Positions 7,437-10,040 of a stretch of DNA of 14,478 nt are shown piece by piece (within the stretch, counting starts at the first letter, position 1; each line of letters starts with the position of its first letter). Both the position numbers and the translations under genes were made by a program. The stretch is from IMG/VR virus record IMGVR_UViG_2713896899_000013, positions 1-14,478 of that record, one strand, 5' to 3'. The notes below the pieces were generated by a model. That model made no database searches. It was not told the origin of the DNA and worked only from the letters and a program-made list of their open reading frames with translations. Source of the DNA: a virus (Duplodnaviria; Heunggongvirae; Uroviricota; Caudoviricetes).

Positions 7437-7996
7437 GCGTTAGTTTCTCCACAGTCACGACACGCCACGGCGCCCGGAGCTGCACACTCGCGGGCGTCAT
7501 TACTTTCTGAAATGCAAAAAATTTTGTAGACCAGTGCAGCATGCTCCTGCAGCTTCGAAATTGAGAGGTACAGCTCGTCGTTAATTGCTGTCTTCTCATG
7601 CGGTTCCACCACACCGTCTTCGATTGCAGAACGAATCTGTTTTGAATAACTGCCGATCTGTTCAATGACTTCCAGCAGACGCTGGTTAACATCGGCATTG
7701 TCCACATCCTCGACGTCAGGAAGAGACACAAAGACGCCATTTGCAGACTGCGCCACAGCATCAGCAATGAAGTGAGTGCCACCAGCACGCTGTAAAACCA
7801 TTGCCCATCCCAGCGGAAAAATCTGATCGCCATCTGCACGAAGGCGGTTGAATAAAGCGTTCTCTGTTACATCCAGCCAGTCAGCCGCTTCAGCGTAACC
7901 ACCCGGCAACGCCGCGATAGTTTTTCTGACAGCTTTCACGTACCACTCAGGCTGTTTTTCTATTTTCCAGTGATGCTTACCCACGATTAGCCTCAT
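7433..7996 (-). CDS. CII-like / YdaT-like regulatory protein
   Basis: Position immediately downstream of cro in the pR operon; 187 aa with a C-terminal Cys cluster; family assignment is from memory of prophage 'regulatory protein CII' (YdaT-like) proteins and is uncertain. Confidence 0.45.
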
Positions 7997-8027: not shown

Positions 8028-8228
8028 CTAATCTTTCGGATAGATATCCGGTCTTAAGTCAGATTTCGTAATTGCACCTGACGTGCATTGCTCAAGTTTT
8101 TTAGCCAGCACAAAACTGGCTTTTTTATAGCCATTGAAAACCAGCCGTAAGTAGCCAGGTGTTGAGCCAACTTTTCCGGCCAACTCGCCCTGCTGTTCTT
8201 TGGTTAAAGAGTCCCAATACGCTTTCAT
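8028..8228 (-). CDS. cro: Cro-like HTH regulator (YdaS/DUF1019-type), 66 aa
   Basis: MKAYWDSLTKEQQGELAGKVGSTPGYLRLVFNGYKK...ITKSDLRPDIYP; divergent from cI across an operator region; GGAGGT Shine-Dalgarno 9 nt upstream of the ATG at 8228. The track ORF 8028-8531 is an upstream extension through the operator region. Confidence 0.75.
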   Translation of the reverse strand: MKAYWDSLTKEQQGELAGKVGSTPGYLRLVFNGYKKASFVLAKKLEQCTSGAITKSDLRPDIYPKD

Positions 8229-8318
8229 ACAATATGTACCTCCGGTGTACATATTACATGATTGAAATGAACCTTCAAGATACTTGTACCTTAACGGTAC
8301 AAGGGTTTTAATTTCGTT
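8229..8318. promoter_or_regulatory. Divergent pR/pRM-like control region with two 19-bp operators (core TGTAC-N7-GTACA)
   Basis: Operators ATGTACCTCCGGTGTACAT (8234-8252) and TTGTACCTTAACGGTACAA (8284-8302). Minus-strand promoter: -35 TTGAAG (8278-8273), 16-nt spacer, -10 TAATAT (8256-8251). Plus-strand promoter: -35 TTGTAC (8284-8289), 17-nt spacer, -10 TTTAAT (8307-8312), start near the A of the cI ATG, implying a leaderless cI mRNA. Confidence 0.6.
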
Positions 8319-8993
8319 ATGAAAACAATCCATGACATCCGGCGGTCTAACGCCAGAAAACTGAGAGATGGTGTTGGCGGGAATTCTTCCTTTGCCACTA
8401 TGATTGATCGCGAGCCAACCCAGACCAGCAGGTTTATGGGAGATGGTGCTACTAAAAATATCGGTGACAGCATGGCACGACACATCGAAAAATGTTTCGA
8501 CCTGCCTGTCGGATGGCTCGATCAAGAACACCAGACAACGAACATCACAAAAAAACCTGATGTTTCAATCACTAATAAACAAATCACATTAGTCCCTGTC
8601 ATATCATGGGTACAGGCCGGAGCATGGAAAGAAGTTGGATATTCTGAGGTTGATTTGAGCACAGCAGAAACGTATCCCTGCCCTGTACCCTGTGGGGAAA
8701 TGACTTATATCTTGCGGGTGATAGGTGATTCAATGATTGATGAGTACCGCCCGGGAGACATGATTTTTGTCGATCCTGAAGTACCTGCCTGCCACGGTGA
8801 CGACGTTATTGCATTGATGCACGATACAGGTGAAACCACCTTCAAAAGGTTGATAGAAGATGGGACACAGCGTTATCTCAAAGCGTTAAACCCAAACTGG
8901 CCTGAGCCTTACATTAAGATCAACGGTAATTGCTCTATAATTGGAACTGTGATTTTCTCAGGAAAACCAAGAAGATACAAAATCAAAGCCTAA
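8319..8993 (+). CDS. cI: CI-type prophage repressor (HTH plus S24 LexA-like peptidase domain)
   Basis: C-terminal VIGDSM...GD...FKRL pattern of the S24 self-cleaving domain; divergent from cro; no Shine-Dalgarno, consistent with a leaderless transcript. Confidence 0.85.
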   Translation: MKTIHDIRRSNARKLRDGVGGNSSFATMIDREPTQTSRFMGDGATKNIGDSMARHIEKCFDLPVGWLDQEHQTTNITKKPDVSITNKQITLVPVISWVQAGAWKEVGYSEVDLSTAETYPCPVPCGEMTYILRVIGDSMIDEYRPGDMIFVDPEVPACHGDDVIALMHDTGETTFKRLIEDGTQRYLKALNPNWPEPYIKINGNCSIIGTVIFSGKPRRYKIKA

Positions 8994-9005
8994 TCAATGT
9001 TTATG

Positions 9006-9029
9006 AACCTGCTTCGGCAGGTTTTTTTA
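9006..9029 (+). terminator. Intrinsic terminator after cI
   Basis: Stem AACCTGC / GCAGGTT with loop TTCG, followed by TTTTTTT. Confidence 0.65.
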
Positions 9030-9032
9030 TAC

Positions 9033-9078
9033 TTGACAATGTACCCATGAGATACATAATGTACCCAAGAGAAACAAC
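9033..9078 (+). promoter_or_regulatory. pL-like promoter overlapped by operators of the same family as those at pR/pRM
   Basis: -35 TTGACA (9033-9038), 16-nt spacer, -10 CATAAT (9055-9060); operator ATGTACCCATGAGATACAT (9039-9057) has the same 19-bp TGTAC-N7 architecture; a degenerate second copy lies at 9058-9076. Confidence 0.55.
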
Positions 9079-9145
9079 AAACAGGCAGGACGCCCACGAA
9101 GTAGCCGCCAGGGGCATATGAAGTCCTGGATGATTCGTTAGTAAC

Positions 9146-9170
9146 AAAAAAAGCGTCGTACAGGACGCTT
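9146..9170 (-). terminator. Intrinsic terminator of the minus-strand secreted-protein gene
   Basis: Minus-strand reading: stem AAGCGTC / GACGCTT followed by TTTTTTTG. Confidence 0.6.
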
Positions 9171-9183
9171 CGCTCTTTAACAA
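9171..9183 (+). promoter_or_regulatory. boxA-like element (CGCTCTTTAACAA) directly after a hairpin, about 105 nt downstream of the pL-like start
   Basis: 12 of 13 match to the rrn boxA consensus TGCTCTTTAACAA and contains the lambda boxA core CGCTCTT; hairpin-then-boxA order as in rrn leaders. Confidence 0.4.
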
Positions 9184-9193
9184 TCTGGATGAC

Positions 9194-9709
9194 TTATCGG
9201 TCAGATTTAAACTGGGGTTCTGGCAAAACTGGTGGTGTTGAATCTTCAAATCGTAACCAGTGTTCCCAAATATCATGTGTTCGTAATTTCTGTAGACTAA
9301 TTTGACGCGATGCAATTGCGGAATTAGTGGTTACTCCACCAGAAGCATCGCCCTCTACTGACGTTGAGGCTTTTTCTACTAATTCTGACCAAGCTTCACT
9401 TTCTGCGTCAAAAGCTTCTGTTAAGTCCCGCAGACGCTGTGGCTCATTTTTATGGTCTTCCTTCAAACGATTCAAAGCGGCAGTTGAATACTTATTCCTG
9501 ACCCATTCGATCTGAGTTAGCTGAATCCGCAGACAATTATCTATATCAATGGTTGTGTTCTGAGGCATGTCAGAACAAGAAATATAAAAGGTCACAACTC
9601 CACCGTTCAAACTACTGCCCGGTTCGATTAAAACATTAGAGGAATTTGACGTAGTCGGCAATATTAATGCTAACGACAAAACCACATGTTTAACAGAAAT
9701 CGCACCCAT
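9194..9709 (-). CDS. Small secreted/periplasmic protein (171 aa), possibly LprI/DUF1311-like; gene lies antisense to the pL direction
   Basis: AGAGGG Shine-Dalgarno upstream of the ATG at 9709; N-terminal hydrophobic signal-like segment VVLSLALIL; own terminator; the family guess is weak. Confidence 0.55.
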   Translation of the reverse strand: MGAISVKHVVLSLALILPTTSNSSNVLIEPGSSLNGGVVTFYISCSDMPQNTTIDIDNCLRIQLTQIEWVRNKYSTAALNRLKEDHKNEPQRLRDLTEAFDAESEAWSELVEKASTSVEGDASGGVTTNSAIASRQISLQKLRTHDIWEHWLRFEDSTPPVLPEPQFKSDR

Positions 9710-10040
9710 TTAAATTGCCCTCTTAAGAACAAGGTCATCCAGATTAACCGAAACCTGGTTATTGGGGAATAACCAAATCCACCTCGCCTGATGTGGCTAA
9801 AAGCAGGCACATAACAGCTAAGTATTTTCAACCAGAGAGAATCCTTAGCGTTGTGGTGAATGCGGCTCAGCGCACGCGGGTTAAGGTTGAGGCTGACAGT
9901 CGACCTTCTGTGGATACCCACCCGTCTGGTGTGCAACCTTCGCCAGGCACCGGGAGGCACCCGGCACCACAACTTTATGCTGTGTGTAGTCTTGGGGGTA
10001 CCAGTTTGTACCCTTGCTTCCGGCTGGTACCGTCCTTTTT

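What the first reader, a model, noticed from the sequence alone, without database searches (positions are those of the whole stretch)
8229..9078. Immunity switch with a shared operator family at pR/pRM and pL, and a leaderless cI
Three 19-bp sites share the core TGTAC-N7-GTACA: 8234-8252 overlaps the -10 of the cro promoter, 8284-8302 overlaps the -35 of the cI promoter, and 9039-9057 lies between the -35 and -10 of a strong promoter just after the cI terminator. A weaker fourth copy is at 9058-9076. The plus-strand -10 (TTTAAT) is placed so that transcription starts at the cI ATG, as at lambda pRM. This defines the immunity specificity of the phage.
Basis: partly seen in the sequence, partly recalled or inferred. 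Interest (0 to 1): 0.5.

Follow-up and report, generated by a model that had tools for sequence, protein, structure and literature searches.

The report
Known e14/SfV prophage immunity switch

Summary
The operator family is real. TGTACC-N5-GGTACA-type sites lie at 8235-8251, 8285-8301, 9040-9056 and 9060-9076. All five sit on the three early promoters between cro and cI and just after the cI terminator.

In 29 related loci from about 20 genera the half-sites are almost invariant. The spacers vary freely and the layout (OR1, 33 bp, OR2, 17 bp, OR3; OL1, 20 bp, OL2) is kept.

The repressor is 100% identical to YmfK of the E. coli K-12 prophage e14, and Cro is 98% identical to YmfT. The cro-cI intergenic DNA is identical to e14. 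The same region is 98% identical in phages SfV and SfIV, and SfV's GenBank record already marks a 'putative operator region' there.

The leaderless cI is experimentally established for this exact sequence: differential RNA-seq mapped the ymfK start site on the A of the ATG, leader length 0 (PMC4681348).

About 24% of complete E. coli genomes carry this module. Verdict: correct reading, already known, low interest.

Side observations: a conserved structured pL leader, and an rrn-type boxA.

The parts
8028..8228 (-). cro (66 aa), homologue of e14 YmfT/CroE
   Evidence: 98% identical to YmfT. phrog_35 transcriptional repressor. Weak HTH_3/YdaS Pfam matches below cut-off.
8235..8251 (.). OR1: TGTACCTCCGGTGTACA. 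Covers the last base of the pR -10, the predicted pR start site and the cro Shine-Dalgarno sequence (GGAGG = plus strand 8239-8243).
   Evidence: Exact motif match. Present at the same place, with CCTCC in the spacer, in all 29 distinct relatives aligned.
8251..8278 (-). pR (cro promoter), predicted: -35 TTGAAG (8278..8273), 16-bp spacer, -10 TAATAT (8256..8251). Start predicted at about 8243-8246.
   Evidence: Read from the sequence. TTG of the -35 and the -10 position (TAATAT or CATAAT) are conserved in an ungapped alignment of relatives. At 8/12 it is below the 9/12 threshold of the consensus scan. The start site is not mapped.
8268..8284 (.). OR2 (weak): TGAACCTTCAAGATACT. Lies on the pR -35 and abuts the pRM -35; centred about -43 from the cI start.
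   Evidence: 3 mismatches in the window, so not significant alone. The left half TGAACC/TGTACC and right half GGTACT are conserved in relatives although they lie in the pR spacer. The site reads TGTACCGTCAAGGTTCT in the Pseudomonas and Salinicola relatives.
8285..8301 (.). OR3: perfect palindrome TGTACC-TTAAC-GGTACA. Lies between the -35 and -10 of pRM; centred about -26.
   Evidence: Exact match. Half-sites are invariant and the 5-bp spacer varies freely in relatives. It is always 50 bp from OR1, or 51 bp in two Pseudomonas phages.
8284..8319 (+). pRM (maintenance promoter of cI): -35 TTGTAC (8284-8289), 17-bp spacer, -10 TTTAAT (8307-8312), start at A8319 of the ATG. The mRNA is leaderless.
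   Evidence: Same geometry in 28 of 31 distinct relatives: an NNNAAT hexamer ends 6-7 nt (once 9 nt) before the ATG, and no Shine-Dalgarno sequence is conserved. The start site is mapped at the A of the ATG in e14, where the sequence is identical (PMC4681348 Table S3).
8319..8993 (+). cI repressor (224 aa) = YmfK. N-terminal DNA-binding domain (1 to about 70), linker, and C-terminal S24 self-cleaving domain.
   Evidence: 100% identical to e14 YmfK and to SfIV CI. Peptidase_S24 E = 1.5e-26. VQAG, GDSM and FKRL align with lambda CI A111-G112, S149 and K192. The N-terminal profile hits the phage SPC32H Rep N-terminal domain, PDB 5D50, E = 3.7e-8.
9005..9031 (+). Intrinsic terminator of the cI transcript
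   Evidence: 8-bp GC-rich stem followed by a T run. A hairpin is kept at this place with different sequences in relatives. Annotated in SfV and Ayreon.
9033..9060 (+). pL: TTGACA (9033-9038), 16-bp spacer, CATAAT (9055-9060). Predicted start about A9067.
   Evidence: 11 of 12 consensus positions. Conserved in enterobacterial relatives. Annotated as a promoter in phage Ayreon.
9040..9056 (.). OL1: TGTACCCATGAGATACA, in the pL spacer
   Evidence: 1 mismatch. Present in all enterobacterial relatives, often as perfect TGTACC-N5-GGTACA. The only differences from e14 in this region are 2 spacer bases.
9060..9076 (.). OL2 (weaker): TGTACCCAAGAGAAACA. Runs from the last base of the pL -10 across the start site, 20 bp from OL1.
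   Evidence: 2 mismatches. The left half TGTACC is conserved 20 bp after OL1 in most relatives, while the right half is variable or degenerate. It has the same position relative to the -10 as OR1 has at pR.
9083..9137 (+). Conserved structured element in the pL leader, with a hairpin at 9108-9112/9125-9129 and a 12-nt loop. It travels with the immunity module; function unknown.
   Evidence: Conserved in 12 relatives up to a mosaic breakpoint. The 5-bp stem is 100% paired and 3 of its pairs show compensatory changes. No Rfam match.
9172..9183 (+). Exact rrn-type boxA (GCTCTTTAACAA) in the pL transcript, preceded by a hairpin at 9153-9168
   Evidence: Exact 12-mer. The same 12-mer occurs in the pL leaders of L006, SfIV, and Limnobaculum and Pseudomonas relatives.

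Best explanation
This is the lysis/lysogeny switch of a lambdoid prophage of the e14/SfV immunity group.

The CI repressor (YmfK) has a helix-turn-helix N-terminal domain and a LexA-like self-cleaving C-terminal domain. As a dimer it binds 17-bp operators of consensus TGTACC-N5-GGTACA.

At the right operator there are three sites:
- OR1 sits on the start site and ribosome-binding site of cro.
- OR2 is weak. It sits on the pR -35 and abuts the pRM -35.
- OR3 is a perfect palindrome inside pRM.

At the left operator, OL1 fills the spacer of the strong pL promoter and OL2 covers its start site.

In a lysogen, CI at OR1/OR2 and OL1/OL2 shuts off pR and pL. pR drives cro, ymfL-like and ymfM-like genes and replication genes. 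pL drives the early left genes towards int. cI itself is transcribed from pRM as a leaderless mRNA that starts at its AUG and ends at the terminator just before pL. OR3 gives negative autoregulation.

After DNA damage, RecA-stimulated self-cleavage at Ala100-Gly101 removes CI. Cro, acting on the same sites, then keeps pRM off.

Shown here or in the literature: the sites, their conservation, the promoter geometry, the protein domains and catalytic residues, the identity with e14, and the leaderless start (mapped in e14).

Inferred: who binds which site and in what order; cooperativity (OR1-OR2 are 33 bp apart and OL1-OL2 20 bp apart, both near whole helical turns); and activation of pRM from OR2.
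For: Motif statistics.

All five sites lie on predicted promoter elements.

There are 29 related loci with CI 43-100% identical. In them the half-sites are nearly invariant and the spacers vary. OR1-OR3 spacing is fixed at 50 bp, the -10 lies 6-7 nt before the ATG, and the terminator-pL-OL1-OL2 order is kept.

The recognition-helix region DREPTQxSR is invariant or nearly so across the same set. H-19B CI has a different helix and sits beside different repeats, TTATC/GATAA.

CI carries an S24 domain, with the cleavage site and Ser/Lys dyad aligned to lambda CI. Its N-terminal domain is related to a solved phage repressor DNA-binding domain.

CI is 100% identical to YmfK and Cro is 98% identical to YmfT. 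The intergenic DNA is identical to e14.

The ymfK start site was mapped at the ATG, leader length 0 (PMC4681348).

SfV's GenBank record marks the same stretch as a 'putative operator region'.

The e14 ymfN-ymfK region holds an SOS-inducible division inhibitor (PMC6206680).
Against: No binding or footprint data for YmfK or YmfT were found in the searchable literature.

pR and pRM are weak matches to consensus and are not reported by the promoter scan. The pRM -10 (TTTAAT) lacks the usual A at its second position.

OR2 has 3 mismatches. Part of its conservation (CAAG) is explained by the pR -35.

OR3, the site that would shut off cI, is the best palindrome. This is the opposite of the lambda affinity order, so the lambda-like sequence of events may not apply.

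OR2 and OR3 abut at 17 bp, on different faces of the helix.

The Pseudomonas phage relatives L004 and L005 have no such sites directly after cI.
Confidence: 0.88

Rival explanations
1. Same proteins and sites, but not lambda-like logic. On this reading pRM is a constitutive weak promoter that is only autorepressed through the high-affinity OR3. The 'OR2' stretch is not an operator; it is merely the pR -35 and spacer. pR is then repressed from OR1 alone, possibly helped by OR1-OR3 or OR-OL looping.
For: OR3 is the only perfect palindrome and sits between -35 and -10 of pRM. OR2 has 3 mismatches in the window. The conserved CAAG within it is the pR -35. The 17-bp OR2-OR3 spacing puts two dimers side by side on different faces of the helix.
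Against: The left half of OR2 (TGAACC, or exactly TGTACC in distant relatives) lies in the pR spacer, where promoter function imposes no sequence. It is nevertheless as conserved as the true half-sites. Its centre at about -43 from the cI start is the classical activating position. The pRM -10 is poor, as expected for an activator-dependent promoter.
Confidence: 0.25
2. The palindromes act as RNA or DNA hairpins (terminators or attenuators) rather than as protein-binding operators.
For: The terminator scan flags 8283-8303 followed by GGTTTTAATT as terminator-like.
Against: Five copies of the same half-site sequence occur in different contexts. Across 29 relatives the stems never change by compensatory substitution; the sequence itself is kept, and only the 'loop' varies. 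OL1, OL2 and OR2 are imperfect palindromes that would fold poorly. The sites coincide with promoter elements, and the co-conserved recognition helix of CI fits protein recognition.
Confidence: 0.03
3. The sites are bound by another regulator of the region rather than by CI, for example by Cro only or by the CII-like YmfL homologue.
For: No direct binding data exist. Cro and the CI N-terminal domain share no detectable similarity.
Against: The motif tracks CI homologues across genera. Its half-site stays constant where the CI recognition helix stays constant, including at pL immediately next to cI. Sites on both pR and pL are the hallmark of the immunity repressor. CII-type activators bind direct repeats flanking a -35, not 17-bp palindromes (established knowledge of lambda CII; phage 186 CII from memory).
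Confidence: 0.04

Closest known systems
Immunity region of the cryptic prophage e14 of E. coli K-12 (ymfK repressor, ymfT/croE, ymfL, ymfM)
   Same: CI is 100% identical and Cro 98%. YmfL and YmfM homologues are 95% and 96% identical. The cro-cI intergenic DNA is identical. There are only 5 differences in 870 nt, 2 of them in the OL1 spacer. ymfK is a documented leaderless mRNA (PMC4681348).
   Different: Downstream of the pL leader the window carries different cargo. There is an antisense gene at 9194-9709, and the window has a boxA that e14 lacks at that place. The window appears to be a fuller prophage, with replication genes and an integrase.
Immunity regions of Shigella phages SfV and SfIV; also phages cdtI, Ayreon, 2H10, PhiR29/49 and Stx2c-converting phages
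   Same: 96-99% DNA identity over cro-cI-pL. SfV's record annotates the cro-cI gap as a 'putative operator region' and the cI terminator. Ayreon's record annotates the pL promoter.
   Different: There are point differences in operator spacers and in one OR1 half-site: SfV OR1 is TGTACCTCCGATATACA and its OR3 spacer is CTATC. Cargo downstream of pL differs.
Phage lambda OR/OL switch (CI, Cro, pR, pRM, pL)
   Same: Divergent cI/cro. Three operators at OR and more at OL, all of one 17-bp family. A leaderless cI mRNA with the same -10 to ATG distance (6 nt). CI with an S24 domain, an Ala-Gly site and a Ser/Lys dyad. A weak site centred near -42/-43 of pRM.
   Different: A different half-site (TGTACC). 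Two OL sites, not three. Spacings of 33 and 17 bp instead of 24 and 23 (lambda values from memory). OR1 lies on the start site and on cro's ribosome-binding site rather than on the -10/-35 spacer. The best palindrome is at the OR3 position. pL follows directly after the cI terminator, with no rex genes. The N-terminal domain has no sequence match to lambda's.
Rep repressor of Salmonella phage SPC32H (PDB 5D50)
   Same: Its N-terminal DNA-binding domain is the only solved structure clearly related to this CI's N-terminal domain (profile E = 3.7e-8, residues 1-72).
   Different: The match is remote. Rep has a different C-terminal part and is inactivated by an antirepressor rather than by self-cleavage (from memory of Kim et al. 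2016, not checked here). Its operators were not compared.

Membership tests
e14/SfV immunity group | Repressor essentially identical in its DNA-binding domain | tested here: met
   CI is 100% identical to YmfK over 224 aa, 100% to SfIV CI and 98.9% to the SfV N-terminal domain.
e14/SfV immunity group | Same operators, so cross-immunity is expected | tested here: met
   OR region identical to e14. At OL only 2 spacer bases differ. SfV differs in spacers and in one OR1 half-site base. Actual cross-immunity is not testable here.
Lambdoid CI/Cro switch | Divergently transcribed repressor and cro genes separated by a short operator/promoter region | tested here: met
   cI at 8319-8993(+) and cro at 8028-8228(-), with a 90-bp gap.
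Lambdoid CI/Cro switch | Repressor with an N-terminal helix-turn-helix domain | tested here: inconclusive
   No Pfam family matches even at E <= 10. The profile matches the N-terminal domain of the SPC32H repressor (5D50, E = 3.7e-8) and, weakly, 'phage repressor CI' chains. No structure was predicted here.
Lambdoid CI/Cro switch | C-terminal S24 (LexA-like) domain with an Ala-Gly cleavage site and a Ser/Lys dyad | tested here: met
   PF00717 E = 1.5e-26. VQAG, GDSM and TFKRL align with lambda CI VQAG, GNSM and TFKKL.
Lambdoid CI/Cro switch | Several related palindromic operators overlapping pR and pRM, and further copies at pL | tested here: met
   Three sites at OR and two at OL, on promoter elements, conserved in relatives.
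Lambdoid CI/Cro switch | Repressor and Cro actually bind these sites; cooperativity; positive and negative autoregulation | not testable with these tools
   Needs EMSA or footprinting and reporter fusions. No such data were found.
Leaderless repressor mRNAs (lambda cI type) | Transcription start on the A of the start codon, with no Shine-Dalgarno sequence | tested here: met
   The -10 ends 6 nt before the ATG and there is no Shine-Dalgarno sequence. This geometry is kept in 28 of 31 relatives. The start site was mapped with leader 0 for the identical e14 sequence (PMC4681348 Table S3). It was not mapped in this particular strain.
N/nut-type antitermination (considered for the pL leader) | boxA followed by a boxB hairpin, and an N-like protein | tested here: inconclusive
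   An exact rrn-type boxA lies at 9172-9183 and recurs in relatives. A hairpin precedes it (rrn order). No N-like protein was identified among the neighbouring ORFs.
P4 CI RNA / P1 C4 antisense RNA (considered for the pL leader) | Match to the Rfam C4 model, or complementary seqA/seqB-type segments | tested here: not met
   No Rfam hit even at E <= 10. No convincing complementary partner of the conserved leader was found in the window, SfV or SfIV.

The most novel reading that the evidence does not exclude
The roughly 60-nt conserved, structured pL leader (9083-9137) always travels with this cI/OL module up to a sharp mosaic breakpoint. In many relatives an rrn-type boxA follows it. The leader may be an undescribed cis-acting RNA element of this immunity group. 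Two possibilities are a factor-independent or Nus-dependent antiterminator, or the target of a termination-based second immunity. The second possibility draws on my memory, unverified here, of a report of a 'P4-like' termination immunity in SfV. If either holds, immunity specificity would be set by more than the CI/operator pair.
Probability: 0.25. Interest if true: 0.5.

Novelty: already known. Interest (0 to 1): 0.15.

Why it matters
The module is present in 1,324 of 5,426 complete E. coli genomes. It is also in serotype-converting Shigella phages, Cdt-I phage and Stx2c-converting phages.

It therefore decides when those prophages, and the SOS-inducible division inhibitor YmfM, switch on, and which phages are immune to each other.

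In what I could search, its operators have only been predicted and never footprinted. The refined five-site map and its conservation give a ready design for such experiments and for predicting cross-immunity.

As a discovery it adds little. The region, its repressor and the leaderless start are already on record.

Tried and rejected
Rfam at gathering threshold on the whole window, and at E <= 10 on 8950-9900, found nothing meaningful.

Pfam on the CI N-terminal 88 aa gave no family.

The search for homologous proteins with the N-terminal domain returned only fragments, useless for a structure prediction, so none was run.

The first genome-contig scan failed and was repeated.

The SfV genome paper, the e14 analysis paper (Mehta et al. 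2004, PMC331406) and a dRNA-seq paper are not held. What I recall of them is marked as memory.

A text search for TGTACC with 'operator' gave only primer coincidences.

The regions downstream of cI in Pseudomonas phages lack the motif, so the OL layout is not universal.

H-19B (N-terminal domain 41% identical) was looked at as a contrast. Its helix and its repeats both differ.

A search for complementary partners of the pL leader, testing the P4-like idea, found nothing convincing.

The terminator reading of the OR3 palindrome was considered and rejected; see the rival explanations.

Single-sequence folding of the pL leader is not better than shuffles (z = -0.49). Only the comparative analysis shows the hairpin.
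Full report
**What is in the sequence**

The stretch holds two divergent genes. cro lies at 8028-8228 on the minus strand (66 aa). cI lies at 8319-8993 on the plus strand (224 aa). They are separated by 90 bp.

After cI comes an intrinsic terminator at 9005-9031, followed at once by a near-consensus promoter. This is TTGACA (9033-9038), a 16-bp spacer, then CATAAT (9055-9060), matching 11 of 12 positions.

The motif TGTAC-N7-GTACA is exact at 8235-8251 and 8285-8301. It has one mismatch at 9040-9056. Three such sites compare with 0.18 expected, and only 1 of 200 shuffles reaches three.

With looser matching, two further sites appear.

The fuller consensus is TGTACC-N5-GGTACA. At up to 3 mismatches it gives 10 sites against 3.6 expected, and 0 of 200 shuffles reach that. 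The five best all lie in the two regulatory gaps.

**Position on promoters, read from the sequence**

These assignments are predictions unless stated otherwise.

pR runs on the minus strand. It reads TTGAAG (8278..8273), a 16-bp spacer, then TAATAT (8256..8251).
- OR1 (8235-8251) begins at the last base of that -10.
- It covers the predicted start site at about 8243-8246.
- It carries the cro Shine-Dalgarno sequence GGAGG in its spacer.
- OR2 (8268-8284) lies on the pR -35.

pRM runs on the plus strand. It reads TTGTAC (8284-8289), a 17-bp spacer, then TTTAAT (8307-8312), then 6 nt, then the ATG at 8319.
- The -35 is itself half of OR3 (8285-8301).
- OR3 fills the promoter spacer.

At pL, OL1 (9040-9056) fills the spacer. 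OL2 (9060-9076) starts at the last base of the -10. OR1 has the same geometry at pR.

pR and pRM are weak matches, and the consensus scan does not report them.

**Comparative test**

The CI N-terminal domain finds relatives in several phages:
- Edwardsiella phage EPP-1, 62% identical;
- Pseudomonas phages, 55-59% identical;
- more remotely, H-19B, 41% identical.

A scan of one genome per species returned 29 loci from about 20 genera with CI 43-100% identical.

In an ungapped alignment of 29 distinct cro-cI gaps, the half-sites TGTACC and GGTACA of OR1 and OR3 are nearly invariant, while the OR3 spacer is essentially random. The OR1 spacer always holds CCTCC, the cro ribosome-binding site. OR1 and OR3 are always 50 bp apart, or 51 bp in two Pseudomonas phages.

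The middle site is conserved too. It reads TGAACCnnCAAGGTACT in enterics and TGTACCGTCAAGGTTCT in the Pseudomonas and Salinicola relatives. Its CAAG is explained by the pR -35. Its left half lies in the pR spacer, where a promoter needs no particular sequence. I therefore accept it as a weak third operator.

Downstream of cI, the order is kept throughout the Enterobacterales relatives: terminator, TTGACA, one base, OL1, TAA, TGTACC....

The stretch IDREPTQxSR, the likely recognition helix, is invariant or nearly so in the same set. H-19B has a different helix and sits beside different repeats.

This pattern is what sequence-specific protein recognition produces. It argues against the hairpin/terminator reading that the scan suggests for 8283-8303.

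**The proteins**

CI has a Peptidase_S24 domain (E = 1.5e-26). Its VQAG, GDSM and TFKRL align with the lambda CI cleavage site A111-G112 and with the catalytic S149 and K192. RecA-stimulated self-cleavage is therefore the expected induction route.

The N-terminal 88 residues match no Pfam family. [quoted passage not shown]

Cro is a small helix-turn-helix-like protein. It falls in phrog_35 and has YdaS/HTH_3 matches below cut-off. It has no detectable similarity to the CI N-terminal domain.

The next genes on the cro operon are a CII-like/YmfL-family regulator and a YmfM homologue.

**Identity with known elements**

The region is 96-99% identical to several phages:
- SfV and SfIV;
- cdtI, Ayreon and 2H10;
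- PhiR29 and PhiR49;
- Stx2c-converting phages.

SfV's GenBank record already marks the cro-cI gap as a 'putative operator region' and marks the cI terminator. Ayreon's record marks the pL promoter.

CI is 100% identical to YmfK of the E. coli K-12 prophage e14, and Cro is 98% identical to YmfT. The whole stretch from -110 to +760 around the cI start differs from e14 at 5 positions. Three are silent changes in cI and two lie in the OL1 spacer.

The module occurs in 1,324 of 5,426 complete E. coli genomes, where it is annotated ymfK/ymfT.

From memory, and not verifiable here, Mehta et al. 2004 (BMC Microbiol 4:4) already identified the e14 repressor and Cro binding sites by comparison with SfV.

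**The leaderless cI**

Geometry supports it. The -10 ends 6 nt before the ATG, as I recall for lambda pRM, and there is no Shine-Dalgarno sequence.

In 28 of 31 distinct relatives an NNNAAT hexamer ends 6-7 nt (once 9 nt) before the ATG. TTGTAC lies 17 bp upstream in most of them. The bases between the -10 and the ATG vary freely.

The decisive evidence is experimental. Romero et al. 2014 mapped start sites in E. coli K-12 by differential RNA-seq. They list ymfK among only five leaderless mRNAs. Its start site is at the first base of the gene and its leader length is 0 (PMC4681348, text and Table S3). The window is identical to e14 over this promoter and start.

**How it most likely works**

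CI dimers bound at OR1 and OR2, and at OL1 and OL2, block pR and pL. The spacings of 33 bp and 20 bp are both close to whole helical turns. That is compatible with cooperative pairs, but cooperativity is an inference.

cI is made from pRM as a leaderless message that stops at the terminator before pL. OR3 allows autorepression.

OR2 is centred about -43 from the cI start, and the pRM -10 is poor. Both fit activation by CI, but this is not shown.

One point does not fit lambda. The best palindrome sits at the OR3 position. A model with autorepression only, and no activation, is therefore a serious rival (about 0.25).

No binding data for YmfK or YmfT were found in the searchable literature.

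**Things noticed outside the finding**

First, the pL transcript starts with a conserved element of about 60 nt (9083-9137). It is shared by 12 relatives from nine genera, up to a sharp breakpoint after GATGATTCG.
- Its 5-bp stem (9108-9112 with 9125-9129, 12-nt loop) is paired in every sequence.
- Three of its pairs show compensatory changes.
- The covariation score is far above the shuffled and slid controls.
- No Rfam family matches.

Second, an exact rrn-type boxA (GCTCTTTAACAA) lies at 9172-9183 after a hairpin. The same 12-mer occurs in the pL leaders of an E. coli relative, SfIV, a Limnobaculum prophage and a Pseudomonas prophage. No N-like protein was recognised nearby.

Third, an antisense gene (9194-9709) with its own terminator is flanked by a perfect 12-bp inverted repeat.

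**Verdict**

The thing itself is the well-known e14/SfV immunity module. Its leaderless repressor message is already documented. Novelty: already known. Interest: low.

Noticed in passing
window 9083-9137 (+): Conserved pL-leader RNA element that travels with the cI/OL module up to a mosaic breakpoint. Its hairpin at 9108-9112/9125-9129 has a 12-nt loop, is 100% paired in 12 relatives and has 3 pairs with compensatory changes. No Rfam match; function unknown.
   Followed up: partly
window 9153-9183 (+): Hairpin (GCGTC-GTACAG-GACGC) followed by an exact rrn-type boxA, GCTCTTTAACAA, at 9172-9183 in the pL transcript. The same 12-mer is found in the pL leaders of L006, SfIV (L036 4272), Limnobaculum (L021 1961) and Pseudomonas (L033 3423). 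This suggests Nus-factor-dependent antitermination, but no N-like gene was recognised.
   Followed up: partly
window 9182-9745: A gene antisense to pL (9194-9709, minus strand, 171 aa, phrog_7681, function unknown, weak LprI-like match) has its own terminator (9171..9150, minus strand). It is flanked by a perfect 12-bp inverted repeat, AATCTGGATGAC / GTCATCCAGATT (9182-9193 and 9734-9745). It looks like an inserted cargo gene. SfIV has a similar but imperfect repeat around different cargo.
   Followed up: no
window 7098-7996 (-): The cro operon continues with homologues of e14 YmfL (CII-like, 95% identical) and YmfM (96% identical). YmfM is annotated as a cell division inhibitor, and this e14 region is reported to hold an SOS-inducible one. 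Derepression of pR should therefore cause filamentation.
   Followed up: partly
window, whole; e.g. 7336-7341, 7381-7386, 7567-7572 (-), 8609-8614 (-), 8684-8700 (+): The half-site hexamer TGTACC occurs 16 times against 4.1 expected, and 0 of 200 shuffles reach 16. Copies include a small cluster inside the ymfL/ymfM-like genes and an operator-like 17-mer inside cI (8684-8700, 2 mismatches). It is not known whether any are auxiliary repressor sites or simply codon usage.
   Followed up: no
window 8319-8590 (CI residues 1-88): The DNA-binding domain of this very common E. coli repressor (YmfK) matches no Pfam family even at E <= 10. It is recognisable only through a profile match to the SPC32H Rep N-terminal domain (PDB 5D50).
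   Followed up: partly
L004 2320-2390 (Pseudomonas phage BR133a): Downstream of the related Pseudomonas repressor gene there is no TGTAC-type OL. Instead there are two copies of CTGTATATACA(G/A), perhaps sites for another regulator.
   Followed up: no
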